This document shows positions 2,729 through 46,597 of a DNA stretch of 50,319 nucleotides, piece after piece. The notes under the pieces are model-generated. The model searched no databases, was not told the origin of the DNA, and saw nothing but the letters and a program-made list of their open reading frames with translations. The DNA is from an uncultured Candidatus Saccharibacteria bacterium (lineage in GTDB: Bacteria > Patescibacteriota > Minisyncoccia > Phycocordibacterales > JAACPR01): NCBI GenBank assembly GCA_964589635.1, contig CAZPRI010000001.1, positions 1-50,319 of the forward strand. Direction: 5' to 3'. Numbering within the stretch: position 1 is the stretch's first letter; each line of letters starts with the position of its first letter. Both the position numbers and the translations under genes were made by a program.

Positions 2729-5700
2729 ATGAAAAAATATTTATTGTTAGCTTTGTTAACGTTTGTTCCGTTTTTTGCAAGCGCTCAAGAAGCACCAGGG
2801 TTATATGTTTCAGATTTATTAATTGAAAAAACAAATTATCAAATAGGAGAGAATGTGACAGGAAGTTTTGACATATTCAATAGTTCAGAATCAGACGCAT
2901 CTGATTTGTATTATTCGTTATCATTAGTAAACGAAAGCTCAGTAACGGGAATAGGTAGTTCAGAAATCGAAGGACCATTTTTTGTGCATGCAAGCACTTC
3001 TGCTCCCGTGAATTTTGTCTATAAAATAAATGAAAAAATAGAGGATTCTAATCAATTACAAGTATCTCTGCATAAAAATAATGGTGCTGTTGTTGCGACA
3101 GGAAAAATAAATATTACTATTTCTGGAGATAATTTAAATTTTGCGGAATACAAACTAAAGGTTCCTTCATTGGTTGATGCTTACGAAACTGAAATACCTA
3201 CAATTGAAGAAATAGAGAGTAGAGAGGTTGGTGAGATGTCTTTTGATGAATTGGAAAAAGAAATTTTCATGATTCAACAATTTCAAGATGGTGATACAGA
3301 TTTCACACTGAATGATGTTCCTTATGTAGAAAAAGATGAAGAATTACTACTTATCGTTGATGAAGAGATTGAAGAGGTTGAAATAACAATATATAGAAAA
3401 AACTTCAACGGAGAGAATGTTTATTCATCCGTTCCTACTCCAGAAGATAACGATGGAGAAAAAAATATAACTATTCCAACTAATTTCACAGCCGGATATT
3501 ATGTCGGAGAAATTAAAGTTGATGGATATGTTACTTCACGATTTTCTTATAATATATTAGGAACACAGGCTGATATATTTAGTCTTACTTCAGATTCTCT
3601 TTCTCCAAAAAAAGGAGAATCATTTAATGTGAATTTAGTTTTGGGAGGGTGGCCTGTTGATGTGATAGGTTCTGAAGTTAATTCACAGCCAGAATACGTT
3701 GATATAGATTTGTTAGTTACAAATCAAAAAGGTGAGGTTGTTGATCAATATTCTCAGACTGTAATGGTTCCTGAGGTTATCGAAGAAAATGGTCAAACAA
3801 GTAATATATTCAACCTACCTATTAATCTAAAAGCAAAAAGTTCAGCAGAGAGCTTAACATTTGATTTGTTTGTTTATGATTCAGATACAGGGCAAATCCT
3901 AGATAGTCTACAGACAACTTTTGGATCTGAAATTAATGAAGAAAGTCCTAGTCTGAAAGTACTAATAGTTTCACTAATAATATTAATAGCTCTTTCTGCA
4001 ATTATATTTGCATTCAAGCTTGGTAAAAAAATACCAACAGTTGTATTAGTTCTTCTATTTGCATTAACAGTTTTCGGTTCATTTTCTACAGAAAAAACAG
4101 AGGCCTCATGGTGGACAGCAATAATTGATTCGCATAATGCATATTACAAGGGAGCACCTTCTGTGAGAGCATTGTGGGTACAAAATGGATATCTTAATAT
4201 CGATACTCCAAAACTGTATAGTGTGAAAAAATATCAACCAAATGAATCATTCACTTATGATGCAACATACTCAATTATTGCAGGAACATCGAATGGTTAT
4301 CTAGGATATATGATTGGAACACCTAGTGAGGCAGACTGGCACACATATACAAGTCTTGAATCTGCAAAGGCAGGTATACAATATTATTTAGATAACTACT
4401 CACTTCCATATTGGGCTATAAACTGGTACGGGCAATGTCTTGATGGAAATGCAGTTTCTTGTAATTTTTTGGATGGATACTCTAACCTATATGGTATCGA
4501 TATAGATGCACGACTAGCTGCTTCAACATTCACAGAAGAATTTTCAGGGTATTCATTTAGCAAGAGTTATTCTTACTCACACAATATGACAATGCCTTCT
4601 ACTCCTGGAGACTATTACATTCCTCTTCATATAACTTACTGTACTGCTTCTCATGGTTGCGCAGATAAAACATATATACAAAGAGTTGAAGTCACTGAAG
4701 ATACTGGTTCATTTTTAGGTGCACCTATTATTGAGGGCCCAAGCACTGGTAAAATTGATGAAGTGTTGAATTTCACAGCTGTAACATATTCTGAAGTCGC
4801 TTCAAATGGATCATTCATTAAAAAAGCCTTGGCTCAAGGTGCAGGTGATCAGGTTAGATATGGAATAGATTGGGATAATAATGATTCTATTGATGAATGG
4901 GCACCTTCTACTGGATATGAAAATATAGGTATAAAAGTCCCTTTCTCTAATTCTTGGGACACTACAGGAAGTTATACTTTTAAAGTATTAGCTGAAAATC
5001 AGGCTGGACTACAATCAGCCTGGACAACAAAAAATATCTTGATAGGAGAATATGACACATGCAGTGATTTTCCTGGAGAAAGGGAATGCATATCTAATAC
5101 ATGGCATGAATGGGTCTGCACATCTGATGGCTGGGAATTGTCTAATACGGGTGAGGTGTGCACAGTGGCTGATGATTATACATTGAGTTGTAGTTACAGT
5201 CCTTCAAGTTCAGTTGCTGAGGGGGGTAGTGTTACTGTCGAGGCTAGCATCTATAAAAATAATACCCTTCAGGAGGATGTTGACTTTGATTTTATATGGA
5301 AATTAAATGGTAATATAGTTAATAGTAATAATAAATCTGTTACTTTCGACAATTTAGATAATGGGTTTTATAATCTATTTCTCGAATTAGAGGACTTGAA
5401 TGAAGGAAAAAAAGTCGAAAATTTCCTAGAAGCCTGTCCATTCTCTATTGGTTCTAGTATTGAAGTTCCAGAAATATCTAGCTTCAAAATTACACCAAAC
5501 TTTGCTCCAAATTGTAAAGCATCATTTGTTGCAACAAATGTGACTACCTGTTCAATTATCGATGTTGATGGAGCTACTGTTGGTGAACCAATTTCTGATA
5601 TTGATGATGGTGATACTGATAGTACTATTAATGCTACGAATCGTCCTGTAGAAAAAGTTGGAACATTTCGTGTCAGATGTGAGGGATCAAATACAAAAAC

Positions 5701-5758
5701 AGTCTTCTCTGAAAACACACAAAAGTGTTCTTCAGTTGGAGATTTTATCCAGACATAA
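2729..5758 (+). CDS. Large secreted/membrane-associated protein of unknown function (PKD-like and Cys-rich C-terminal regions)
   Basis: 1009-aa ORF with an N-terminal signal peptide MKKYLLLALLTFVPFFASA. Internal hydrophobic pair near aa 408-455. A YGIDWDNNDSIDEW...SYTFKVLAENQAGLQSAW segment looks PKD-like. Confidence 0.7.
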   Translation: MKKYLLLALLTFVPFFASAQEAPGLYVSDLLIEKTNYQIGENVTGSFDIFNSSESDASDLYYSLSLVNESSVTGIGSSEIEGPFFVHASTSAPVNFVYKINEKIEDSNQLQVSLHKNNGAVVATGKINITISGDNLNFAEYKLKVPSLVDAYETEIPTIEEIESREVGEMSFDELEKEIFMIQQFQDGDTDFTLNDVPYVEKDEELLLIVDEEIEEVEITIYRKNFNGENVYSSVPTPEDNDGEKNITIPTNFTAGYYVGEIKVDGYVTSRFSYNILGTQADIFSLTSDSLSPKKGESFNVNLVLGGWPVDVIGSEVNSQPEYVDIDLLVTNQKGEVVDQYSQTVMVPEVIEENGQTSNIFNLPINLKAKSSAESLTFDLFVYDSDTGQILDSLQTTFGSEINEESPSLKVLIVSLIILIALSAIIFAFKLGKKIPTVVLVLLFALTVFGSFSTEKTEASWWTAIIDSHNAYYKGAPSVRALWVQNGYLNIDTPKLYSVKKYQPNESFTYDATYSIIAGTSNGYLGYMIGTPSEADWHTYTSLESAKAGIQYYLDNYSLPYWAINWYGQCLDGNAVSCNFLDGYSNLYGIDIDARLAASTFTEEFSGYSFSKSYSYSHNMTMPSTPGDYYIPLHITYCTASHGCADKTYIQRVEVTEDTGSFLGAPIIEGPSTGKIDEVLNFTAVTYSEVASNGSFIKKALAQGAGDQVRYGIDWDNNDSIDEWAPSTGYENIGIKVPFSNSWDTTGSYTFKVLAENQAGLQSAWTTKNILIGEYDTCSDFPGERECISNTWHEWVCTSDGWELSNTGEVCTVADDYTLSCSYSPSSSVAEGGSVTVEASIYKNNTLQEDVDFDFIWKLNGNIVNSNNKSVTFDNLDNGFYNLFLELEDLNEGKKVENFLEACPFSIGSSIEVPEISSFKITPNFAPNCKASFVATNVTTCSIIDVDGATVGEPISDIDDGDTDSTINATNRPVEKVGTFRVRCEGSNTKTVFSENTQKCSSVGDFIQT

Positions 5759-12369: not shown

Positions 12370-13419
12370 ATGGAAAAACCAGAAGCTATAAAGTTTCACT
12401 CGGGAAGTGAGCATAGTCTTTCTGCAAAGGAAATCATTAATCCAATACTTGAAAGGGAGCATTTTATTGAGTCTCTGTATGAAAAATTAAAAGACGCGAC
12501 TATTGAACAAAAAACTGATGTAGTGTCTATACTATTCAAAAATTCTGTTGAAGATGGGATGACTCTATCCAAAAAGTTAGGATTAAATACTACCGCAACG
12601 TTTCAGTCTTTGATGGATTCAGCAGATAGAGAAGATAGATTGATAGAGCAAATAACATCATCAGTGTCCAGAGAGGTTGATAATATGTCTGACACAAATA
12701 GAATATTATTTGAAACAGAACTAAGTGACTACGAAAGACGAAAAGATGATCAGTCAATCAGGAAAAGAGTTATACAAAAAGAGACTGAAGATGAAATACA
12801 AGAATACTACCTTCCTTTTATTGCACAAAAGAGAGTACAAGAAAAAATAGGAATAAGTAGTAGTTTGGCAGATGAATCTCTGGTTCAATTATTTACTACA
12901 CGAGAAAGAATACGAGGAAACCTGTTTCCGTTTTTTACAATTGCCGATTATATAAAGAAGGAAACAGGAAAAGAGCTAGAGTGGGGAGGTGAAAGGACTT
13001 TAACAGAAAAGGAAGCAATAGTTGTTCTAGAAAAATATGGATTAGATTTAGAAAATGCTAAGGCTTCTAAAAGAATAAATCCAATGCCTGTGTATAAAGA
13101 AATTTATGATGCTCAAAAAGATAATGCAAAATTAGAACTTAAAAAAGAGATTAGAGAAAGCCTTATTTCTAGAGGATACAGTGAAGGTGATTTTGAAATT
13201 TTTAAAAAGGGTACAAAATATGTAATTGAGTTTTCAGATGATATCGAAAAAAAGGAAACATTCTCTGATTATCAAAAGAAAAAAGTGGCAGCTATTGAAA
13301 AAGAATTACTCAAAGAAGGTGTAGACAAATACTCCATCGCCCAAGGTCTCGCCGGTGTATCAACTCCTGAATCTATAGAACTAAGAGAAAGACTACTTAA
13401 AGAAGGATTGAGTCCTTAA
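12370..13419 (+). CDS. Hypothetical helical protein (no recognisable domain)
   Basis: 349-aa ORF, charged/helical, first gene of the insert between rplW and rplB. Confidence 0.6.
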   Translation: MEKPEAIKFHSGSEHSLSAKEIINPILEREHFIESLYEKLKDATIEQKTDVVSILFKNSVEDGMTLSKKLGLNTTATFQSLMDSADREDRLIEQITSSVSREVDNMSDTNRILFETELSDYERRKDDQSIRKRVIQKETEDEIQEYYLPFIAQKRVQEKIGISSSLADESLVQLFTTRERIRGNLFPFFTIADYIKKETGKELEWGGERTLTEKEAIVVLEKYGLDLENAKASKRINPMPVYKEIYDAQKDNAKLELKKEIRESLISRGYSEGDFEIFKKGTKYVIEFSDDIEKKETFSDYQKKKVAAIEKELLKEGVDKYSIAQGLAGVSTPESIELRERLLKEGLSP

Positions 13420-13700: not shown

Positions 13701-16499
13701 ATGGAATTAAAAAATACCTTTCTTACTATTGAATCAGGGAAAATAGATTCTTTGGAAAGAGAAAAAGAAATTTTACAGAACGAAATTCTTGAAAGAGAAA
13801 AAAAAATCTCAGATTCAAATCCTGAAATAGTAAGAAATCAGGCAGTTGCTGAAACGTTATCTGAGTATGCTCAAAATAAACCACATGAAGTTTTAGATAA
13901 TGAAATACTTTTGGATGAGAAATCAGAGCATGAAATTGTTCTTGCGCTTTCTCCCGAAAAACATGATGACAAAATGGCGAACCTAATAGGTTTAATTCAA
14001 ACGAAAGGTATTTTGAATACTTTAGCAGTTATCCAAAAGACAGAAGATTCTCACGTGCAGGACGACTTTCACAGATTTTTAGTTCAGTATGTAAAAGAGG
14101 GTCTTCCTGTGAACGGGCTTACAGATAAAAGTGAATTAACAAAAATTTTAAAAAGAACTTTGTTTGAAATTGTTTTACCAAGTTTTAGGGGCGGGGAAGA
14201 AGGTGGTTTTAAGGTTTTATATAACAATATGAAACAGTTTTATACAGGAATGCTTTCTATTGCAAATGAAACTGATTATTTAACTCTAGAAATTGCAAAC
14301 GCTATTGGATCAAGAGAATTCATATTTTACGTGTCCGTGAGCGACTCATCTATAGATTTATTTGAAAAACAAATTCTTTCTATTTTCCCAGATGCAAGAA
14401 TGGAAGTTAAAAATGATGATTATAATATTTTTGGAGAAGCGGGCGAATCTTCTGGTGCTTATGCTACTCAAAAAGAATTGACAGTGAAAACTTTGAAAAC
14501 TGCAGAGGAGATGGATACTGATCCAGTGCGAGTTATGTTAAATATTTTCTCAAAACTTGATGAACATAATGAAGCTGCAGCAATCCAAATTATCTTCAAA
14601 CCTGTAAAAGATTTTTATACTAAAGCTTATTTGAAAGGTTTGGCCAAAGCGGAAAAGGGTGAGGGTGCTTCAGAGTTCTTTAGTATAAGAAACACAACCG
14701 GAGACAAATTCATGAGAGGAGTTTCTAAGGCTGTATCTATGACCGGGTCTATTTTTGAAGGAAGGAAAAGTTCAGAAGATGAAAAACCAAAGGATGTTGA
14801 CTCAAACCTTATAGAAAATGTAAACAAGAAAATTACTTCAGAAGTTGTTTCAACAAATTTACGACTAGTGGCTTCATCTGCTACTAAGGCTCGAGCTGAT
14901 GCTATTTTGTCGGAAATTAAGTCTGCCTTTAATCAGTATCAAAACACTAAAGGTAATAGATTGGAATTTGTTAATGTTTCTGAAAAGTATAAAAAGACAT
15001 TCTTTAAGAAATTTTCATTTAGAGAATTCAATCCAGCAAATGATATGCCACTTAGTATAGATGAATTATCTTCTTTAGCTTATTTTGTTTCTGAACAAAA
15101 AGACCTAAGCCCACAACTTAAAACTTCTGGATTTAAGACATCATCAGCACCTGTGAATATTGCTAGTGATGGAATTTTACTCGGAAAAAATGTCCACAGA
15201 GGAGCAGACACAGAAATTCATTTTTCAGACAATGACAGAATGAGACACTTTTATGCGATCGGACAAACAGGAACTGGTAAGACAACACTTTTGAAAAATA
15301 TGATAATTCAAGATATTAAAAACGGAGACGGTGCTTGTTTTATCGACCCGCATGGATCCGATGTTCAAGATATTTTGGCGAATATTCCACCAGAAAGAAT
15401 GGATGATGTTATCTATTTTGATCCTGCCGACATGAAGAGACCGATGGGGCTAAATATGCTTGAATACGATTCTAATTATCCAGAACAAAAAACTTTTGTT
15501 GTTAATGAATTGTTTTCTATTTTTCAAAAATTGTATGGAGAGTCTAATCCAGAATCTATGGGTCCTATGTTTGAACAATATTTCAGAAACGCGACAATGC
15601 TCGTGATTGAAGATCAAGAATCAGGCTCAACACTTCTTGATGTTTCAAGAGTTCTTGTTGATAAAGAGTTTAGAGAAATGAAATTGTCTAAATGTAAGAA
15701 CCCGGTAATTTTGACTGCATGGAGAGAGAACCTCGAAAAAGCGGGAGGGGAAGCGTCTCTTGCCAATGTTGCTCCGTACATTACATCAAAGTTCGATGTA
15801 TTTTTAGCTAACGACATAATGCGACCAATTATTGCTCAAGAAAAATCAAGTTTTAATTTCAGGGACATTATGGATAATAAGAAGATTTTACTTGTAAATC
15901 TTTCGAAGGGAAGACTTGGGGATATAAACTCAAGCTTGATTGGTTTGATTTTGGTTGGAAAGATTTTGATGGCAGCTCTTTCAAGAGTTGATTCGTTTGG
16001 AAAAGAAATGGCACCATTTTATTTATATATTGATGAGTTTCAAAATGTTACAACTCCATCTATTTCTGCAATTTTGTCAGAAGCCAGAAAGTATCAACTT
16101 TCATTAAACATAGCTCATCAATTCATAGATCAGTTATCAGATGGAATTAGAAGTTCTGTCTTTGGTAACGTTGGAACTATTTGTACATATCGAGTTGGAG
16201 CCAAGGATGCTGAGTTTCTAGAGTCACAATTCAGTCCAACTTTTGTTGCAAAAGATATACAAAATATAGACAACTATAATGCGTACATCAAAATGCTTTC
16301 AAATGGTGTACCAATAAATCCATTTTCTCTCCGAGCACTCGTTCCACCAGAAGGAAATCTCGAGCAAGTAGAAAAATTAAAGGAATATTCTTCTCTGAAG
16401 TATGGAAGAGTACGAGAGGAAGTGGAAGAAGAGATTATGAATAGGTATAAAAAAGAGGATAAACCTGTTCAAGAAAGAAACCCATTCGATAAGATATAG
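13701..16499 (+). CDS. TraD/VirD4-like (type IV coupling protein-like) P-loop ATPase with a ~500-aa unknown N-terminal region
   Basis: 932 aa. Walker A GQTGTGKTT (15261-15287), Walker B YLYIDEFQ (DE at 16032-16037), then ARKYQLSLNIAHQFIDQL typical of TraG/TraD C-terminal modules. No obvious TM segments. Confidence 0.75.
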   Translation: MELKNTFLTIESGKIDSLEREKEILQNEILEREKKISDSNPEIVRNQAVAETLSEYAQNKPHEVLDNEILLDEKSEHEIVLALSPEKHDDKMANLIGLIQTKGILNTLAVIQKTEDSHVQDDFHRFLVQYVKEGLPVNGLTDKSELTKILKRTLFEIVLPSFRGGEEGGFKVLYNNMKQFYTGMLSIANETDYLTLEIANAIGSREFIFYVSVSDSSIDLFEKQILSIFPDARMEVKNDDYNIFGEAGESSGAYATQKELTVKTLKTAEEMDTDPVRVMLNIFSKLDEHNEAAAIQIIFKPVKDFYTKAYLKGLAKAEKGEGASEFFSIRNTTGDKFMRGVSKAVSMTGSIFEGRKSSEDEKPKDVDSNLIENVNKKITSEVVSTNLRLVASSATKARADAILSEIKSAFNQYQNTKGNRLEFVNVSEKYKKTFFKKFSFREFNPANDMPLSIDELSSLAYFVSEQKDLSPQLKTSGFKTSSAPVNIASDGILLGKNVHRGADTEIHFSDNDRMRHFYAIGQTGTGKTTLLKNMIIQDIKNGDGACFIDPHGSDVQDILANIPPERMDDVIYFDPADMKRPMGLNMLEYDSNYPEQKTFVVNELFSIFQKLYGESNPESMGPMFEQYFRNATMLVIEDQESGSTLLDVSRVLVDKEFREMKLSKCKNPVILTAWRENLEKAGGEASLANVAPYITSKFDVFLANDIMRPIIAQEKSSFNFRDIMDNKKILLVNLSKGRLGDINSSLIGLILVGKILMAALSRVDSFGKEMAPFYLYIDEFQNVTTPSISAILSEARKYQLSLNIAHQFIDQLSDGIRSSVFGNVGTICTYRVGAKDAEFLESQFSPTFVAKDIQNIDNYNAYIKMLSNGVPINPFSLRALVPPEGNLEQVEKLKEYSSLKYGRVREEVEEEIMNRYKKEDKPVQERNPFDKI

Positions 16500-16520: not shown

Positions 16521-16549
16521 TTGATTTTATTATAAATGCGGGTTAATAT
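16521..16549 (+). promoter_or_regulatory. Candidate promoter for rplB
   Basis: TTGATT (16521-16526), 17-nt spacer, TAATAT (16544-16549). Confidence 0.4.
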
Positions 16550-16661
16550 CATGCAACTTATATTTAAGTGTTTTTCACTTGAAAAAGTATTAATTATTAG
16601 GTTGTATACCCGTTCGACTCCGCCAAAGGTTTCGATCAGGGTGCTAACTAAAAAACTTATT

Positions 16662-17510
16662 ATGGCATTAAAGAAATATAAACCAACATCGCCAGGTCAA
16701 AGAAATATGACTGTAATCAAATACAGGGATTATTTGACTACAGACAAACCAAACAAGAAACTTACAAAAGGTAAGAGAAGTACTGGTGGTAGAAACTCTG
16801 ATGGTAGAATTACTACAAGACACAAAGGAGGTGGAAACAAGAAAAAATACCGACAAATCGATTTTAAATATAACAAGATCGGTATTCCAGCAAAACTAGA
16901 AACTATTGAGTATGATCCAAACAGAACAGCCTTTATTGGTGTTGCTCTGTATGCTGATGGAGAGAGAAGATATATTATCGTTCCTCAATCAATGAAGGTA
17001 GGAGATACATTTGAGGTTTCAGAAACAGCTAAGACTAAGACAGGTAACAGAACTATGATTGGTAAAATTGCTGTAGGAACATTTGTTTATAATATTGAAC
17101 TACAACCAGGAAATGGTGCGAAATTAGTTCGATCAGCAGGAAACTATGCTGAGATTGTTGCTCAAGATGTAGAAACAGGAATGACTCAACTAAAAATGCC
17201 TTCAACAGAAATAAGAAAAGTTATTTCAACAGTTTGGGCATCAATTGGTGAAGTTTCAAACCCAGAGAAAAAACTTGTTAATGTTGGTAAGGCTGGTAGA
17301 AACAGACACAAAGGTGTTAGACCGACTGTTAGAGGTTCAGCTATGAACGCTGTAGACCATCCACACGGAGGAGGAGAAGGTAGACAAGGTATTTCTCTTA
17401 GAAGAGGTCCTAAGACACGACAAGGTAAACTTGCATACGGTGTTAAGACTAGAAAGAAGAAGAAATATTCAAAGAATATGATTGTGAAGAGAAGAAAGAC
17501 ACAGAGATAG
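16662..17510 (+). CDS. rplB: 50S ribosomal protein L2
   Basis: MALKKYKPTSPGQR start; RHKGGGNKK and HPHGGGEG motifs. The track ORF start at 16536 adds a non-homologous leader. Confidence 0.95.
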   Translation: MALKKYKPTSPGQRNMTVIKYRDYLTTDKPNKKLTKGKRSTGGRNSDGRITTRHKGGGNKKKYRQIDFKYNKIGIPAKLETIEYDPNRTAFIGVALYADGERRYIIVPQSMKVGDTFEVSETAKTKTGNRTMIGKIAVGTFVYNIELQPGNGAKLVRSAGNYAEIVAQDVETGMTQLKMPSTEIRKVISTVWASIGEVSNPEKKLVNVGKAGRNRHKGVRPTVRGSAMNAVDHPHGGGEGRQGISLRRGPKTRQGKLAYGVKTRKKKKYSKNMIVKRRKTQR

Positions 17511-17520
17511 ATTTAAAAAG

Positions 17521-17554
17521 AAAAAAGCGCGGCCTTCGGCCGCGCTTTTTCTTT
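17521..17554 (+). terminator. Rho-independent terminator after rplB
   Basis: GCGCGGCC-TTC-GGCCGCGC followed by TTTTT. Confidence 0.85.
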
Positions 17555-17825: not shown

Positions 17826-18644
17826 ATGAAAATCTTTCAAAAAACAGTCTTGTTCTCTTTATTATTTATTCTTTTTGTTCCTTTTGTTTCGAGTGCAGAA
17901 GAATCAGCAAATAAAAATGATATTTATTTAAGTGGTGACATTGATTCAAAGGTTCACGTTATCACATACATAGACTTTGAGAGCCCTTTTGCAGATAAAT
18001 TTAATACTACAGTTAAAAGTTTAATTGATGAGTATGATGAGGATGATGTATCTTTTCTCTATAGATTTCTTCACTTAACTGGAATCTATCCTAAAGCAGA
18101 AGAAAGAATACAGGCTTTTATGTGCATGTTGGATATTGGTGATAGTGATGAGAAAATCGAATATTTAGACAGGGTATTCGGAGCGGTATCAACTGATGAA
18201 CATGAGGTAGAAGAGGTTGATCTAGATAGCTCAGATTTTGAAGATTGTTTAGAAAGTAATAAATACCTGAAAGAGATATCAGAAAATACAGATATGTATA
18301 TGAATGAGTTTAGAAAAGATTCTCAGTTTGGAATACCTCATACATCTATTTTTATTGGCAATAGTTTTGAAGCTAACATAAGAGGTGCAGTTCCAAAGAA
18401 TGAAGCAGAAAGAGTAATTGATCTAGTATTAAAGATCGATAATGACGATCATGAAGATGACGACGACGATAAGGAACATGTTGATAAATATGACGATGAG
18501 TATGAAGATGACGACAATATGGAACATGAGGACGTGAATCTTTCAGCTTCAGAGATTTCATTCCTAATTGAAACTATTTTTGGAAAAAACTCAGATGTTT
18601 ATAAGTTTATACAGTTGCTAATTCAGGTTGGAGTGATTAAATAA
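17826..18644 (+). CDS. Secreted DsbA-like thioredoxin-fold protein lacking the CxxC motif, with acidic/His-rich tail
   Basis: Signal peptide present. VHVITYIDFESPFADKF aligns to the DsbA-family FxDFxCPFC region but has SPFA (17982-17993). The later FEDCL...GIPHTSIFIGN pattern fits. Tail is DNDDHEDDDDDKEHVDKYDDEYEDDDNMEHED. Confidence 0.6.
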   Translation: MKIFQKTVLFSLLFILFVPFVSSAEESANKNDIYLSGDIDSKVHVITYIDFESPFADKFNTTVKSLIDEYDEDDVSFLYRFLHLTGIYPKAEERIQAFMCMLDIGDSDEKIEYLDRVFGAVSTDEHEVEEVDLDSSDFEDCLESNKYLKEISENTDMYMNEFRKDSQFGIPHTSIFIGNSFEANIRGAVPKNEAERVIDLVLKIDNDDHEDDDDDKEHVDKYDDEYEDDDNMEHEDVNLSASEISFLIETIFGKNSDVYKFIQLLIQVGVIK

Positions 18645-18704: not shown

Positions 18705-18735
18705 AAAAAAGCGGCCCTTCGGGCCGCTTTTTGTT
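18705..18735 (+). terminator. Rho-independent terminator
   Basis: GCGGCCC-TTC-GGGCCGC followed by TTTTT. Confidence 0.85.
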
Positions 18736-22621: not shown

Positions 22622-22906
22622 TCATTGTCTACAACCCTTGTTAGAGTCTACAACCCTTGTTAGACCTCCAATTTTATTCCGAATAATCAATTCAGAAAGT
22701 GACCAGTCCTCATTTACGAGACTCAGTAGTCTATGGGGCGTACCCTGAATACTTGTATGAGTCGCTACACCCTCTTCTTCTGTTGAGATTCCAATCAAGA
22801 TTGGAATACTGCTGGGTGAGAATGATAAGGCCATAAGTCTTTTCCTAAGTCTCCTCAGACAAAGATCGGATTTCTTGCTGTTTTTTTCTACAATTGTGTA
22901 TTTCAT
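22622..22906 (-). CDS. Questionable 94-aa ORF in a GC-elevated segment (could instead be non-coding)
   Basis: ORF track only. Its last 14 codons are the tandem repeat, it holds a perfect 20-bp palindrome at 22788-22807, and no family was recognised. Confidence 0.3.
   Translation of the reverse strand: MKYTIVEKNSKKSDLCLRRLRKRLMALSFSPSSIPILIGISTEEEGVATHTSIQGTPHRLLSLVNEDWSLSELIIRNKIGGLTRVVDSNKGCRQ
22627..22664. repeat. Perfect tandem duplication of a 19-bp near-palindromic unit
   Basis: GTCTACAACCCTTGTTAGA at 22627-22645 and again at 22646-22664. Confidence 0.95.
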
Positions 22907-22985: not shown

Positions 22986-23261
22986 CTACCTTAGGATGAT
23001 TTCAATCATCAAACCAGTACTAGGAAACCTTTTTAGGGGTATTTCGCCTATAATGATATCCAGTGCCTGTCTGAATGTCTCTAGGATAGAGTAGGGTGCT
23101 CCTACAAAATCTGTTTCAGTATTATCAGTCAAATCTCTGATTGAAAGAGTTACTTCAGAGTCTGGATGCTCCTCCTTTAGTTCTCGAAGTCTTAATAAGA
23201 CTTCTTCAGAATCATCAGATTTTAATTTTCCTGAGGTATATTCGAGTACGTATTTGTCCAT
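22986..23261 (-). CDS. Hypothetical acidic 91-aa protein
   Basis: ORF with its own terminator immediately downstream; no recognisable domain. Confidence 0.5.
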   Translation of the reverse strand: MDKYVLEYTSGKLKSDDSEEVLLRLRELKEEHPDSEVTLSIRDLTDNTETDFVGAPYSILETFRQALDIIIGEIPLKRFPSTGLMIEIILR

Positions 23262-27383: not shown

Positions 27384-29939
27384 GTGTGTATTCCTGTATT
27401 CTTAGTGTTGCTATTGGGAACATCTAAACTAAATAATGATTTAAATTCATCATCATTAAGTCTGGTCAATTTTAATCTTTTAGCACAAAATTATATTCAA
27501 AATGCGAATTGTCCTGTAGAGAAGGATTTGACCGAACACATCAATGATGAAATATTTGATAGAACATCTTCTGCTATTCCAGAGTCTTCACCAACAGACC
27601 TATTTATTTCAAGAGGTAATAGTGCGTCCTGGAATGAAGAAATAGGTGGAGTATGGGAAAGAAATCCAAATGTTTTAAAATCTAATAATAAACTATTGGA
27701 TTTCTCTGGGGTCTCACCATGGAATTCAGGTACTGGTTATAACAGAGCAGGAACATTGATAACTCCTAGGCATATTATTTATGCCAATCATTATAATCCA
27801 AGTAAGGGTGAACACCCTATAGAAATAGGAACAAAAATTAATTTTGTGGATATGAACAACTCCATTGTAGAAAGAACATTGGTGGATTCTAGAAAGGTTT
27901 ATGGTACTGATATTCAAGTTGGGTTATTGAATGAAGATGTTCCAGAAAATATACCGTTTTATCCAATATTGGATTCTGGAAACCTAGAAAAGTATCTTGG
28001 AAACAAATCAAAAGATTTATTTTTAATAGCATTAAATCAAGATCATGATGTTATTGTAAGGGAGATTTTACAACCCATTAATTCTGTAAGAATCTCTCAT
28101 AAAATCCCTGTTTCAGATCAACTTAATTTGTTCAGTAAAAACTTAAGGGTAGGAGATTCTGGTAATCCAATGTTTTTTAGTATTAATGGTGATTTAGTGC
28201 TCATTGCTGGGCATGCTAGTAAGGTTGCTGGTCCATCATATTCATTTTATAAAAAAGAGATTCAAGATACTATCAATCAGATGAGTTCAGGGTACACATT
28301 GAAGAATTTTGACCTTTCATGCTTCAGGCCTCATATTGTTTTGTCTGATGAGGCTCCTCTTGTTGTTCCTGAAAAATTTGATGTTGGTGATAATGTTGGT
28401 TCAATAAAAATTAAAAGTGGTTTACAAAGTGGCGGATACGTATTTTCTATATCAAAAGGTAATGAGGACGGACTGTTGTCTATAAATAGTTCAACAGGGA
28501 AAATTGTTGTAGCAAGCAAGATATCTAATCAGTTAAAAAGCTCATCAAGAGAAATAGAAATAAGTGTTAAGTCTGATGTTTTTCCTGACACAGCAGTGTA
28601 TCAATCATACAAAATATATTTTGAGGATTATTTACCAAAATTTTCCGCTCTTATTGAAGATAAAAAGGATGATTCGATTAATTTTGCATGGAGAACAACT
28701 TCTGCAAAACCAAGAACAGTTAGTATCCCTGTAGAGACTAGATATAAACATCATATTTTTAAAAACAGTGTATTTTTGGGGACTGTAGAAAAAAACACTT
28801 TCACAGATCTTGATTTTAAAACTGAAGAACCGTCTAGGTACTTAATATATGTTGAAAGTGATAATGATCTTATTGGTTTTTCTGAAATAATCATTAATCC
28901 TTCAGAAATTAATACTCCTAACAACGCACCTATCCTATCTTCAATAGGAGATCAAGATGTCGTAGAAGAATCAACATTATCTTTAGAAATAGAGGCAACT
29001 GATGCAGATAGAGACACTCTCTCATATTCAGTTGATTCTTTGCCAGAGAATGCCTCATTTAATCCAAATTCAAGAAAATTTATTTTTGAACCAGATCAGA
29101 CTCAAGAAGGACAATACGATATTACCTTTATAGTTTCAGATGGGGAATTGAAAGATGAAGAAGCAATTGTAATCACTGTTACAAATCTAGGAGACTCAAA
29201 GTCTATTGATGACTCAGATAATGATGGAATTTTAGACACACAAGATAAATGTCCAAATACTCCAGCAAATATAAAAACTCACGTGAACAAATTTGGTTGT
29301 CCAAAACCAGTTCATACAAACTTTGATACGGGAACAGATTTGGATGATGTTGACCCGACAGCTTCAATTACAGGCCTTGAATTAGGAGTATCAAACAAAG
29401 GAAAAATTAAATTCCTAGAAGACGTTACGCTTAACACTAGCTCATATATAACAAAAAGAGTTAATCTTGATAATTTGATTAAGATTGAAAAAAATAAGGT
29501 TACAATTGATTCAGATAGTGCGCCACAATTAAATAGAAGAGCAACTATTGAGTTGGAGGGTGTCGAATTTGATACTCCGGTTATAAAGAAGGATGGAAAT
29601 GTGATATTGTGTCCATTTAGAGTCGACGCTTCAGGAGATGAGGATTGTATAATTGAATCATACGATAAATCAACAGGTCTTCTAGTTTTTACAGTTTCAG
29701 GTTTCTCAACATATGAAATTCAAGAAGGGTCAGGTGAAAATGAAACAACTGTTTCAGAAGTTAAACCTACATCAAGTGTAAACACTGATAAAAGAACTAG
29801 TTCTGGAGGAAGGGGAGGTTCCTCATCAAAAGATAGTGGAGAAAAAGAAGTAACACTGATCAATTTTCTAAAAATTCTTTTATTTTTTGGGCTGATCTCT
29901 CAAGATCAAGTAAACTTTATTACAAGCTTATTTATTTAG
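27384..29939 (+). CDS. Large surface protein: trypsin-like serine peptidase-like N-domain, cadherin-like repeat, thrombospondin type-3-like Ca-binding repeat
   Basis: GTG start (the true start may lie upstream). H in TPRHIIYANH, D in GTDIQVGLL, S in GDSGNPMF (Ser codon 28158-28160). Also ATDADRDTLSYSV cadherin-like, DDSDNDGILDTQDKCPNTP TSP3-like, and a hydrophobic C-terminus. Confidence 0.7.
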   Translation: MCIPVFLVLLLGTSKLNNDLNSSSLSLVNFNLLAQNYIQNANCPVEKDLTEHINDEIFDRTSSAIPESSPTDLFISRGNSASWNEEIGGVWERNPNVLKSNNKLLDFSGVSPWNSGTGYNRAGTLITPRHIIYANHYNPSKGEHPIEIGTKINFVDMNNSIVERTLVDSRKVYGTDIQVGLLNEDVPENIPFYPILDSGNLEKYLGNKSKDLFLIALNQDHDVIVREILQPINSVRISHKIPVSDQLNLFSKNLRVGDSGNPMFFSINGDLVLIAGHASKVAGPSYSFYKKEIQDTINQMSSGYTLKNFDLSCFRPHIVLSDEAPLVVPEKFDVGDNVGSIKIKSGLQSGGYVFSISKGNEDGLLSINSSTGKIVVASKISNQLKSSSREIEISVKSDVFPDTAVYQSYKIYFEDYLPKFSALIEDKKDDSINFAWRTTSAKPRTVSIPVETRYKHHIFKNSVFLGTVEKNTFTDLDFKTEEPSRYLIYVESDNDLIGFSEIIINPSEINTPNNAPILSSIGDQDVVEESTLSLEIEATDADRDTLSYSVDSLPENASFNPNSRKFIFEPDQTQEGQYDITFIVSDGELKDEEAIVITVTNLGDSKSIDDSDNDGILDTQDKCPNTPANIKTHVNKFGCPKPVHTNFDTGTDLDDVDPTASITGLELGVSNKGKIKFLEDVTLNTSSYITKRVNLDNLIKIEKNKVTIDSDSAPQLNRRATIELEGVEFDTPVIKKDGNVILCPFRVDASGDEDCIIESYDKSTGLLVFTVSGFSTYEIQEGSGENETTVSEVKPTSSVNTDKRTSSGGRGGSSSKDSGEKEVTLINFLKILLFFGLISQDQVNFITSLFI

Positions 29940-46012: not shown

Positions 46013-46597
46013 TTATCTATTTATTTTAAAGCTATTAATAGCAACAATGAAATCATCTTTCATTGAATCGAAATCATTAGAATTTGCTGTTGTTGAAATT
46101 ATGTATAAAACATTTTTATAAAAAAATTGATATGACTCAAACGTATCTTCTGAAACAGAACTGCCAATCGAACTAGGTCCACTAAATTTTACCCAATACG
46201 CAGGAATTTGATCAATAAACATTTCTTTGAATTCAAAATTTCTAACACCAGGAAGGGTTTTCTCCATATCTGCTTTTGTATCTTCTTTGAAATCTCCAAA
46301 ATCAACAAGGTCTTTTATGGTTTTATCTTCCCAAGACACTGCCTCAATTACTAATGGGACATCTCTGATTGCAAGAGAAATAGTGGCACTTCCTCTTGTT
46401 GCTTTTTGTACAACAGCTTTTGAGTCGCTAGATTCTCTAGTACTAATTTGCCACCCTTCTGGGAAAGTTACAGAAAAATTATATGCTGTATTTTGATAAG
46501 TTAAATTTTCTACTTTAGAATATTTTTGGTCGGTATTAGTCGCTGGGCGAGAAAATCCAAAATCAATAAATACTCCAATTATCACCAATAAAATCAT
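46013..46597 (-). CDS. Membrane-anchored hypothetical protein (possibly 5'-truncated by a frameshift)
   Basis: 194 aa. The frame stays open 31 codons upstream of the ATG without a start, and ATG 46764 in another frame encodes a hydrophobic 24-aa lead-in. Confidence 0.6.
   Translation of the reverse strand: MILLVIIGVFIDFGFSRPATNTDQKYSKVENLTYQNTAYNFSVTFPEGWQISTRESSDSKAVVQKATRGSATISLAIRDVPLVIEAVSWEDKTIKDLVDFGDFKEDTKADMEKTLPGVRNFEFKEMFIDQIPAYWVKFSGPSSIGSSVSEDTFESYQFFYKNVLYIISTTANSNDFDSMKDDFIVAINSFKINR

What the first reader, a model, noticed from the sequence alone, without database searches (positions are those of the whole stretch)
13701..16499. Soluble TraD/VirD4-like coupling-protein ATPase with a novel ~500-aa N-terminal region and no visible T4SS partners
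The C-terminal ~420 aa carry Walker A GQTGTGKTT and Walker B YLYIDEFQ. The ARKYQLSLNIAHQFIDQL...FGNVGT block is characteristic of TraG/TraD/VirD4-type (FtsK/HerA-superfamily) coupling ATPases. Classical coupling proteins are anchored by N-terminal TM helices and sit next to relaxase or VirB genes. This protein has no obvious TM segment, an uncharacterised coiled-coil-rich N-terminal half and no conjugation genes nearby.
Basis: partly seen in the sequence, partly recalled or inferred. Interest (0 to 1): 0.65.

Follow-up and report, generated by a model that had tools for sequence, protein, structure and literature searches.

The report
Patescibacterial DUF8128 coupling-protein-like ATPase
This gene encodes one member of a large, already catalogued family of membrane-transport-motor-like ATPases found in ultra-small Patescibacteria; its function is unknown, but it is a highly conserved core gene rather than a conjugation gene, here lodged inside a ribosomal-protein operon.

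Summary
The 932-aa ORF, its Walker motifs, the lack of TM helices and the lack of nearby T4SS genes are all confirmed. The C-terminal ~400 aa are a VirD4/TrwB-type (T4CP) ATPase. The N-terminal half is not novel: it is Pfam PF26449 (DUF8128). The family has hundreds of full-length relatives in Paceibacteria (Patescibacteria). A 57 %-identical homologue is listed as a 'T4CP not near virB4' in a 2025 census.

- The DUF8128 region is predicted to fold like the N-terminal domain of VirB4/TrwK. This rests on one reference protein with low TM-scores.
- Residues ~1-140 are the fused equivalent of a separate ~135-aa protein. In sister lineages that protein is encoded directly upstream of shorter family members, most of which carry an N-terminal TM helix.
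- The ATPase domain is as conserved as ribosomal protein uL14.
- The gene usually lies at the end of the ribosomal superoperon (map|T|ndk). Here it lies between rplW and rplB.

Most likely it is an exapted, non-conjugative coupling-protein-type motor working at the membrane, but this mechanism is inferred. Verdict: new member of a known kind, moderate interest.

The parts
13701..16499 (+). Complete ORF (932 aa + stop): long-form DUF8128-T4CP-like ATPase
   Evidence: ORF list and translation. More than 120 full-length homologues, all carrying PF26449.
13701..14120 (+). N-terminal helical module (residues ~1-140) with invariant E86/H88/D89 (nt 13953-13967 region) and D121-D122-F123-H124-R125 (nt 14061-14078). 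It is the fused equivalent of a free-standing ~135-aa partner protein of the short-form relatives.
   Evidence: AF2 helices at 18-132. Invariant columns. hhalign of A7 against the small-ORF family A8: probability 43.6 %, P 2.4e-4, 117 collinear columns. A8 against the fused intermediate P0237: probability 93.4 %. Alignment A5.
14133..15095 (+). DUF8128 alpha/beta domain (residues ~145-465), predicted VirB4-NTD-like fold
   Evidence: The model of residues 1-480 (pLDDT 79) matches only TrwK/VirB4 chains in Foldseek/PDB, at E 9e-6 to 1.6e-4 over ~410 columns with TM 0.33-0.40. There is no sequence-level match to PDB or to the local Pfam copy.
15096..15167 (+). Low-confidence linker (residues 466-489)
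   Evidence: pLDDT below 50 for residues 466-477.
15168..16340 (+). VirD4/TrwB-type P-loop ATPase domain (residues ~490-880). Walker A at nt 15261-15287, Walker B at nt 16020-16043, ARKY..QL motif at nt 16083-16136.
   Evidence: Median identity is 66.6 % across 36 species.
15483..15875 (+). All-alpha insertion within the ATPase domain (residues ~595-725), at the position of the T4CP all-alpha domain
   Evidence: Secondary structure of the AF2 model. TrwB structural alignment. The placement relative to the TrwB AAD is an inference.
16341..16496 (+). C-terminal tail (residues 881-932), helical and charged
12370..13419 (+). Upstream 349-aa ORF (u349). It is a neighbour and not a conserved partner.
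   Evidence: No Pfam, NCBIfam or PADLOC hit. It is a singleton among 85 related loci. It is present on the second contig L098.
11901..12308 (+). rplW (L23), the upstream flank of the insertion in the S10 operon
16662..17510 (+). rplB (L2), the downstream flank. The likely true start is ATG 16662. A 162-bp gap without a terminator separates it from the target.
17522..17550 (.). Strong hairpin terminator after rplB, the first terminator-like site on the + strand downstream of the target's stop codon

Best explanation
Identity. The gene encodes a long-form member of the Patescibacteria (Paceibacteria/Parcubacteria) DUF8128-T4CP family. The protein has three modules:
1. A ~140-aa helical module. 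In sister lineages this module is a separate small protein encoded immediately upstream.
2. The DUF8128 alpha/beta domain, predicted to fold like the N-terminal domain of VirB4.
3. A VirD4/TrwB-type coupling-protein ATPase with intact Walker A and B motifs.

Biology shown here. It is a vertically inherited chromosomal core gene and not part of a conjugative element.

Proposed mechanism (inferred, not shown). The ATPase domains form a ring-shaped motor at the cytoplasmic face of the membrane. Short forms are held there by one TM helix. Long forms, like this one, would be held through the fused helical module and the VirB4-like domain, which dock on a membrane partner. The most plausible partner is the non-conjugative chromosomal T4SS (VirB3-TrsD-VirB4-VirB6-VirB2) that nearly all Patescibacteria carry elsewhere in the genome. 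ATP hydrolysis would then feed a macromolecular substrate (DNA or protein) into or out of that envelope machine.
For: Family membership:
- PF26449 is recorded on the window's own protein and on all 120 listed homologues.
- At least 580 GTDB species loci encode a relative.
- KKR53198.1 (57 % identical) is listed as T4CP, profile t4cp1, 86 % coverage, 'VirB4 proximity: No'.

T4CP-type motor:
- Pfam TrwB_AAD_bind is above its cut-off.
- The short form P0258 passes T4SS-DNA_transf and TrwB_AAD_bind.
- hhalign against TrwB gives 92.6 %.
- A profile of the domain hits only DotL and TrwB among T4SS ATPases in PDB sequences.
- Foldseek against TrwB gives TM 0.63.

VirB4-like N-terminal half:
- The full-length model's best matches are TrwK at E 1e-15 over ~900 columns.
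- The N-terminal model matches only TrwK.
- The VirB4 NTD is known to mediate membrane and VirB3/VirB8 docking and dimerisation (PMC12857230).

Membrane link:
- 10 of 13 short forms start with a TM helix.

Fusion/fission of the N-terminal module.

Core gene:
- The motor domain is 66.6 % identical across species, against 66.7 % for uL14 and 59.2 % for SecY.
- Synteny is stable, with map|T|ndk in about half of 85 loci, and all recurrent neighbours are housekeeping genes.
- Base composition does not differ from the flanks.

T4SS and T4CP homologues are near-universal in Patescibacteria, relaxases are rare, and exaptation has been suggested (PMC12102498).
Against: - The gene is never adjacent to virB4 or other T4SS genes in the loci examined. 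In the census, only 148 of 5,713 T4CP homologues are near virB4.
- The same census reports that the t4cp homologue of Ca. S. epibionticum is dispensable for epibiotic growth while other T4SS genes are essential. Whether that homologue is a DUF8128 protein was not tested.
- Genomes can hold a second T4CP homologue that could be the true T4SS partner.
- The VirB4-NTD resemblance rests on one reference protein (TrwK, in many PDB entries) and on TM-scores of only 0.33-0.40. There is no sequence support: hhalign against TrwK gives 7 %, and the N-terminal profile finds nothing.
- Oligomeric state, membrane association and substrate are all untested.
Confidence: 0.5

Rival explanations
1. A housekeeping cytoplasmic DNA translocase of the FtsK/HerA kind. 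It would act in chromosome segregation, division-coupled DNA clearance or recombinational repair, independently of any secretion system.
For: - It is a core gene whose motor domain is as conserved as ribosomal proteins.
- It recurs beside division, shape and DNA-repair genes: the dcw cluster MraZ-RsmH-FtsL-FtsI-MurF, MreB, RmuC, UvrB and RuvX.
- HerA is among the structural matches, and there are weak DUF87/HerA profile hits.
Against: - The profile match to FtsK is E 0.8 and to HerA E 0.05, against 1e-4 for DotL and TrwB.
- No FtsK gamma domain or HerA HAS-barrel was detected.
- Sister short forms are TM-anchored.
- The neighbourhood is dominated by translation genes, which says nothing specific about DNA metabolism.
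Confidence: 0.2
2. The cytoplasmic motor of DNA uptake, associated with the type IV pilus and competence machinery. It would pull incoming DNA through ComEC, and the adjacent ndk and beta-CASP nuclease genes would then help salvage nucleotides.
For: - The two closest informative relatives (68-71 % identical) have T directly followed by pilM and three small ORFs.
- In Wolfebacteria the short form lies next to a ComFC-like gene and pilM-pilO-pilB-pilT-pilC-pilin.
- Pilins or PilB/PilC lie near T in L001, L006, L012 and L015.
- T-ndk-DUF2238-betaCASP is the commonest downstream synteny.
- There is a weak NCBIfam hit to the archaeal DNA-import ATPase CedD (E 0.0065).
- From my own knowledge: the ComB4 and Ced systems use related ATPases for DNA import.
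Against: - Pilus-type genes lie within +/-10 kb in only 10 of 85 loci, and core machinery in only 2. This may be close to background in pilin-rich genomes.
- No ComEC gene was seen next to T.
- The nucleotide-salvage link is speculation.
Confidence: 0.15
3. An NTPase component of a conflict or anti-phage defence system.
For: - The closest non-CPR relatives of the ATPase domain (33 % identity, E 1e-57 to 1e-59) are orphan genes on plasmids among CHAT, TPR, NYN, CYTH and Fic genes.
- PADLOC mad8 (MADS) matches at E 3.7e-15, and there are weak HerA defence models.
Against: - Stable housekeeping synteny, near-universal presence and very strong purifying selection are the opposite of defence-island behaviour.
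- No other MADS or defence genes are nearby.
- The N-terminal parts of the plasmid relatives are unrelated to DUF8128.
Confidence: 0.05
4. A canonical conjugative coupling protein left over from, or belonging to, an integrated mobile element.
For: T4CP profile hits.
Against: - No relaxase, integrase or mating-pair-formation genes were found in the window or in related loci.
- Composition is the same as the flanks.
- Synteny is conserved across hundreds of species.
- Relaxases are rare in Patescibacteria.
Confidence: 0.03

Closest known systems
Patescibacteria 'T4CP homologues not near virB4' (Quinonero-Coronel et al. 2025, PMC12102498) / Pfam PF26449 DUF8128 proteins
   Same: It is the same family. 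The window's protein carries PF26449. The 57 %-identical KKR53198.1 is in the paper's Table S3 as T4CP/t4cp1, not near virB4. The orphan chromosomal location, the absence of a relaxase and the suggestion of exaptation all agree.
   Different: Nothing essential differs. Points not found in the papers searched are the VirB4-like fold of DUF8128, the long (fused, TM-less) and short (TM-anchored plus small partner gene) architectures, the placement in the ribosomal superoperon, and the conservation level.
VirD4/TrwB/TraD/DotL type IV coupling proteins
   Same: Walker A and B motifs, the RH-x4-GxTGxGK(T/S) and ARKxxxxxxxxxQxxxQL motifs, an all-alpha insertion, and structural superposition on TrwB (TM 0.63).
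   Different: There is no N-terminal TM anchor in this protein. It has a ~480-aa N-terminal extension. It has no relaxase or T4SS neighbours. NCBIfam equivalog scores are far below their cut-offs (36.8 against 366 and similar). The motor domain is far more conserved than is usual for T4CPs; that last comparison rests on my own knowledge.
VirB4 (TrwK of R388)
   Same: The overall two-part layout is the same: a large non-ATPase N-terminal domain plus a C-terminal FtsK/HerA-superfamily ATPase, with no TM helices. Foldseek ranks TrwK first for the full-length model and as the only match for the N-terminal half.
   Different: There is no sequence-level similarity in the N-terminal domain. The ATPase domain is closer to TrwB than to TrwK. 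There is no adjacent virB3 and the gene is not in a T4SS cluster. A separate bona fide VirB4 exists in most of these genomes.
Orphan 'DUF87 / TraM-recognition / T4SS DNA-binding domain' ATPases on plasmids of Bradyrhizobium, Rhodococcus, Streptomyces, Bacillus and haloarchaea, and mad8 of the MADS defence system
   Same: The ATPase domain is 26-34 % identical over ~400 aa (E down to 3e-59). These proteins are also TM-less, carry ~300-aa N-terminal regions and stand alone.
   Different: Their N-terminal regions are unrelated to DUF8128. Their genomic setting is variable conflict-type islands and not core housekeeping synteny.

Membership tests
Pfam PF26449 (DUF8128) family | Match to the PF26449 profile | tested here: met
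   A precomputed PF26449.1 hit is recorded on P0001, which is the window's own protein at 100 % identity, and on all 120 listed homologues. The model is absent from the local Pfam copy, so I could not re-run the match.
Type IV coupling protein (VirD4/TrwB/TraD) | FtsK/HerA-superfamily P-loop domain with intact Walker A and B motifs | tested here: met
   GQTGTGKT at residues 521-528 and LYIDEF at 775-780, invariant in 56 sequences.
Type IV coupling protein (VirD4/TrwB/TraD) | Profile match to T4CP models at curated thresholds | tested here: inconclusive
   Pfam TrwB_AAD_bind scores 23.7 against GA 20.5, a pass, but the match covers only residues 506-558. TraG-D_C scores 21.0 against GA 22, a fail. 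All NCBIfam T4CP equivalogs are far below their cut-offs. The short-form relative passes T4SS-DNA_transf and TrwB_AAD_bind over ~300 residues. A homologue reaches 86 % coverage of CONJScan t4cp1 in a published table.
Type IV coupling protein (VirD4/TrwB/TraD) | Structure of the nucleotide-binding domain with its all-alpha domain superposes on TrwB | tested here: met
   Foldseek against TrwB: E 5e-11 and weaker, TM (target-normalised) 0.60-0.67, ~415 columns. DotL and Cag-beta also match. The query is a predicted model with pLDDT 76.
Type IV coupling protein (VirD4/TrwB/TraD) | N-terminal transmembrane anchor | tested here: not met
   No hydrophobic segment in residues 1-500. All 155 long-form sequences lack one, whereas 10 of 13 short forms have one.
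Type IV coupling protein (VirD4/TrwB/TraD) | Genetic linkage to a relaxase and/or mating-pair-formation genes | tested here: not met
   None among the scanned ORFs of the window. None recognised in 85 related loci. The published table lists 'VirB4 proximity: No'.
VirB4 | VirB4-type N-terminal domain | tested here: inconclusive
   At fold level, TrwK is the only PDB match for residues 1-480 (E 9e-6, TM 0.33-0.40). At sequence level there is no match to TrwK, to PDB profiles or to any Pfam family in the local copy.
VirB4 | ATPase domain of VirB4 type, and adjacency to virB3 within a T4SS cluster | tested here: not met
   hhalign against TrwK gives probability 7 %, against 92.6 % for TrwB. No VirB3 or T4SS neighbours were found.
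FtsK / HerA DNA translocases | Profile match to the FtsK motor or to HerA, with their accessory domains (gamma domain, HAS barrel) | tested here: not met
   FtsK E 0.8 and HerA E 0.05 with the C-terminal-domain profile. Pfam DUF87 scores 19.5 against GA 23.2. No accessory domains were detected.
MADS defence system (mad8) | A mad8 match together with the other mad genes | tested here: not met
   The mad8 model matches the ATPase core at E 3.7e-15. No methyltransferase or other mad genes are in the window. The match is to a generic ATPase core.

The most novel reading that the evidence does not exclude
The DUF8128 proteins would be a third, Patescibacteria-specific branch of the VirB4/VirD4 ATPase radiation. 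They would combine a VirB4-like docking domain with a VirD4-type motor and a dedicated small helical partner, which is fused in this protein. This branch would have been exapted into an indispensable housekeeping transporter co-expressed with the ribosome. Examples of such a role are the energising or substrate-feeding subunit of the essential non-conjugative T4SS, or a motor that imports host-derived DNA or nucleotides in organisms that cannot make their own.
Probability: 0.25. Interest if true: 0.7.

Novelty: new member of a known kind. Interest (0 to 1): 0.4.

Why it matters
Patescibacteria make up a large share of bacterial diversity and depend on hosts, and their T4SS is essential in the one system tested. 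Almost every genome also carries orphan 'coupling protein' homologues of unknown role. This analysis shows four things about one such family: its motor is as conserved as ribosomal proteins, it is wired into the ribosomal superoperon, its N-terminal half is predicted to be VirB4-like, and it has a dedicated partner that is fused in some lineages and separate in others. Together these give concrete, testable handles (interaction partners, localisation, essentiality) on what these motors do. For genome annotation, the gene should be labelled a DUF8128/T4CP-like ATPase and should not be taken as evidence of a conjugative element.

Tried and rejected
- Sequence searches with the N-terminal half. 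A profile against PDB sequences gave only noise; the best hit was the eukaryotic uS19 N-terminus at E 0.04. The local Pfam copy also gave only noise. No HD-type or nuclease family matched, despite the invariant E-H-D / H-DD-F-H-R residues.
- hhalign of the whole family against R388 TrwK found only the P-loop (probability 7 %). The VirB4 link therefore remains structural only.
- u349 as a partner: rejected. It is a singleton among 85 loci and has no family hits.
- S10-operon position as a conserved feature: rejected. The closest relatives have the gene elsewhere. The majority position is map|T|ndk.
- Type IV pilus linkage as a general rule: downgraded to 10 of 85 loci.
- Relatedness of the N-termini of the plasmid-borne relatives to DUF8128: rejected.
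- Co-occurrence of long and short forms on one contig: no coinciding contig lengths among the top 120 hits. This is unresolved.
- 'DUF8128' appears in no paper in the library. The main text of Wang et al. 2023 does not contain 'VirD4', 'T4CP', 'VirB4' or 'type IV secretion', so the non-essentiality statement is cited second-hand from PMC12102498.
- R388 could not be fetched under BR000038. It was fetched as NC_028464.
- The small partner family matches nothing in PDB or Pfam.
Full report
**1. Observation**

The ORF at 13701-16499 (+) is real and encodes 932 aa. These residues are invariant in an alignment of 56 homologues.

A Kyte-Doolittle scan finds no TM segment. The only hydrophobic stretch (742-760) lies inside the conserved ATPase core. 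Pfam scans of the other large ORFs of the window show a Patescibacteria-type chromosome segment dominated by translation and housekeeping genes:
- fusA, rplJ, rplL, tuf;
- the S10, spc and alpha-type ribosomal genes;
- secY, adk, map, ndk;
- infC-rpmI-rplT, murD and others.

No relaxase or VirB-type gene was detected. Several ORFs have no Pfam hit at all. GC content at the gene (0.31-0.35) matches the flanks.

**2. Where it sits**

The gene lies inside the S10 ribosomal-protein operon. The order is rpsJ-rplC-rplD-rplW, then an unknown 349-aa ORF, then the target, then rplB, then a thioredoxin-like gene, then rpsS-rplV-rpsC-rplP.

rplB most likely starts at ATG 16662 (MALKKYKPTSPG...), not at 16536. 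That leaves a 162-bp gap after the target with no terminator-like site in it. The first strong hairpin terminator follows rplB at 17522-17550. A second contig record is 100 % identical over 5,008 bp and spans all three junctions. Its independence from the window's own assembly is unknown.

**3. It belongs to a large, known family**

- A homology search returned 955 hits. The 120 best are full-length (908-953 aa) and 53-71 % identical. All carry the precomputed Pfam domain PF26449, including the window's own protein. PF26449 is DUF8128.
- Source names include 'type IV secretion system DNA-binding domain-containing protein', 'TraM recognition domain-containing protein' and 'DUF87 domain-containing protein', from Parcubacteria and Paceibacterota.
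- At least 580 stretches in one-genome-per-species GTDB contigs encode a relative.
- An exhaustive phmmer search with residues 1-480 found 682 clusters at the 50 % identity level.

The literature already describes the phenomenon. Quinonero-Coronel et al. 2025 found 5,713 VirD4-type T4CP homologues in 2,918 of 3,035 Patescibacteria genomes. Only 148 were near virB4 and relaxases were rare. The authors state that exaptation of t4cp 'cannot be ruled out' (PMC12102498).

I tied the present family to that census directly. KKR53198.1 (= P0060, 57 % identical to the target) is in their Table S3 as 'T4CP, t4cp1, 86.36 % coverage, VirB4 proximity: No'. The same genome also holds a second T4CP, VirB3, TrsD and VirB2. 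No paper in the library mentions DUF8128.

**4. The C-terminal domain is a T4CP-type motor**

- Pfam TrwB_AAD_bind is just above its cut-off and TraG-D_C is just below. NCBIfam T4CP models match only weakly.
- A profile of the domain hits DotL (8e-5) and TrwB (1.4e-4) in PDB sequences. HerA scores 0.05 and FtsK 0.8, and VirB4 does not appear.
- hhalign of the family against R388 TrwB gives probability 92.6 %, against 7 % for TrwK/VirB4.
- The AlphaFold model (pLDDT 76) superposes on TrwB with a target-normalised TM of 0.60-0.67 over ~415 residues. It has a helical insertion (~595-725) where T4CPs carry their all-alpha domain.
- A short-form relative passes the Pfam thresholds for T4SS-DNA_transf and TrwB_AAD_bind over ~300 residues.

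**5. The N-terminal half**

The full-length model's best PDB matches are not TrwB but VirB4/TrwK of R388, at E 1e-15 with ~900 aligned columns spanning both halves. A separate model of residues 1-480 (pLDDT 79, pTM 0.64) matches only TrwK chains. There are 14 such hits at E 9e-6 to 1.6e-4 with ~410 columns, followed by a clear drop to noise.

The caveats are important. All 14 hits are the same protein in different PDB entries. TM-scores are only 0.33-0.40. There is no sequence support. I therefore call this a predicted VirB4-NTD-like fold and not proven homology. In VirB4 this domain mediates dimerisation, membrane embedding and contacts with VirB3 and VirB8 (PMC12857230).

**6. Two architectures and a fused partner**

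The family has two architectures.
- Long forms, like the window protein, have Walker A at residue 480 or later, no TM segment, and usually an invariant D-D-F-H-R motif (155 sequences).
- Short forms (~780-820 aa) have Walker A at residues 385-427. Ten of 13 begin with a single strongly hydrophobic helix and lack the first ~140 residues.

The short form is itself a big family, found in Wolfebacteria and other Patescibacteria. In four short-form loci from different lineages, a 131-142-aa ORF ends 3-15 nt before the ATPase gene or overlaps its start. This small ORF defines a family of 297 proteins with no Pfam domain. Their contig lengths coincide repeatedly with those of the short-form ATPase.

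Three results link the small ORF to the long form's N-terminal module:
- Profile-profile comparison of the two gives an end-to-end collinear alignment of 117 columns, with probability 43.6 % and P 2.4e-4.
- The small-ORF family matches the N-terminus of P0237, a TM-less fused form, at probability 93.4 % and E 2.6e-7.
- P0237 aligns with the long form's D-P-H...D-[DE]-F-H region.

I conclude, with moderate confidence, that residues ~1-140 of the window protein are the fused version of a separately encoded partner. This is a Rosetta-stone relation, and it implies that the module interacts physically with the ATPase protein. The partner matches nothing in PDB or Pfam.

**7. A core gene, not a mobile one**

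I clustered the ORFs of 85 related loci.
- About half show the order rplR-rpsE-rplO-secY-adk-(c24)-map-TARGET-ndk-DUF2238-betaCASP-...-rplT/rpmI/infC.
- Two other species have the gene between rplB and rpsS (L032, L039). The window has it between rplW and rplB.
- Other recurrent neighbours are all housekeeping genes: the dcw cluster, mreB, obg, uvrB, rmuC, tgt and gatB.
- The closest relatives (68-71 % identical) have the gene next to pilM or yceG/ychF. The S10-operon position is therefore recent and lineage-specific.
- The 349-aa upstream ORF is not conserved.

Across 36 species, the ATPase domain has a median identity of 66.6 % to the window's copy. That equals uL14 (66.7 %) and exceeds SecY (59.2 %). 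The N-terminal half is only 35.9 % identical.

**8. Relatives outside Patescibacteria**

The ATPase domain has relatives with 26-34 % identity (E down to 3e-59) on plasmids of Bradyrhizobium, Sulfitobacter, Rhodococcus, Streptomyces, Bacillus and haloarchaea. Those I inspected are orphan genes of 700-740 aa lying among CHAT, TPR, NYN, CYTH and Fic genes. Their N-terminal parts are unrelated to DUF8128. PADLOC's mad8 model matches the ATPase core at E 3.7e-15. TM-less T4CP-like motors with variable N-terminal domains are therefore a wider phenomenon. The DUF8128 branch differs from the others by its core-gene behaviour.

**9. Mechanism**

Shown or strongly supported:
- an apparently catalytically competent T4CP-type P-loop domain;
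- no conjugation context;
- core, vertically inherited status;
- a membrane anchor in sister forms;
- a dedicated partner that is fused in this protein.

Inferred:
- a ring-shaped motor at the inner face of the membrane;
- docking through the VirB4-like domain and the helical module onto a membrane complex, most plausibly the chromosomal non-conjugative T4SS;
- coupling of ATP hydrolysis to transfer of DNA or protein.

I give this reading about 0.5. The rivals and their weights are:
- a cytoplasmic FtsK/HerA-like housekeeping DNA translocase, 0.2;
- a competence or type IV pilus-associated DNA-uptake motor, 0.15 (pilus genes lie near the gene in only 10 of 85 loci);
- a defence ATPase, 0.05;
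- a canonical conjugative T4CP, 0.03.

**10. Verdict**

The motor assignment and the orphan status are right. The 'novel, coiled-coil-rich N-terminus' is not. The gene is a new member of a known and already catalogued family whose function is unknown. Interest is moderate (0.4). The existence of the gene would not surprise a specialist. The VirB4-like N-terminal half, the fusion/fission with a small partner, the extreme conservation of the motor and the embedding in the ribosomal operon all make the family's function more tractable.

Noticed in passing
window 10260-33164: The ribosomal-protein superoperon is interrupted several times by non-ribosomal genes besides the target. These are a 349-aa orphan ORF (12370-13419), a thioredoxin-like protein (17826-18644), an 851-aa surface-type protein (27384-29939) between secY and adk, and two minus-strand ORFs (22622-22906 and 22986-23261) between rplE and rpsN.
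   Followed up: partly
window 27384-29939 (+): This 851-aa protein has He_PIG/Big_9 Ig-like domains plus a match to the eukaryotic Nup98-type autopeptidase S59 domain (PF04096, 29.7 bits against a cut-off of 28.4, residues 660-778). That is unusual for a bacterial protein.
   Followed up: no
window 17522-17550 and 18706-18732: Two nearly identical strong GC-rich hairpin terminators (AAAAAGCG(C)GGCC-TTCG-GGCC(G)CGCTTTTT) bracket the thioredoxin-like gene inserted between rplB and rpsS.
   Followed up: no
window 16536-17510: The mechanical ORF call for rplB starts at 16536. The true start is probably ATG 16662 (MALKKYKPTSPGQR), because the L2 models align from residue 45 of the long ORF.
   Followed up: yes
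window 2729-5758 (+): A 1009-aa protein with a hydrophobic cluster at residues ~411-453 and no Pfam hit lies between fusA and rplJ.
   Followed up: no
L092 8602-8997; L094 8601-9008; L096 7557-7985; L097 7599-7997: A family of ~135-aa helical proteins has 297 members, no Pfam domain, and the invariant motif F-x-L-D-A-F-H-D-A-L. In three of these four loci (L092, L096, L097) it is encoded immediately upstream of the short-form DUF8128 ATPase, whose sampled members mostly carry an N-terminal TM helix. The L094 ORF occupies the same position but showed no similarity to the other three. Fifteen of 44 members weakly hit PheRS_DBD2, with a best E of 0.016.
   Followed up: yes
L032 (rplB|T|..rplV) and L039 (T|rpsS): In two other species, whose copies are about 51-52 % identical to the window's, the same gene also sits inside the S10 operon but at a different junction (rplB/rpsS). 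This suggests repeated relocation within the ribosomal superoperon.
   Followed up: partly
L090 (Bradyrhizobium p131_1) and L091 (Rhodococcus pYYL1.1): Orphan TM-less T4CP-like ATPases of 708 and 738 aa lie among CHAT, TPR, NYN, CYTH and Fic genes on plasmids. They may be components of uncharacterised conflict systems.
   Followed up: partly
target residues ~425-475 (window ~14970-15125): A profile of the N-terminal half weakly matches the N-terminal extension of eukaryotic ribosomal protein uS19/S15 (E 0.04, motif FS[FY]R-x-[FI]...L-x-L-x-x-x-E-L). This is probably chance, but it is curious given the ribosomal-operon context.
   Followed up: no
window 46013-46597 (-): A PsbP-like protein (PF18933, E 5e-10) is encoded in a non-photosynthetic Patescibacteria-type genome.
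   Followed up: no
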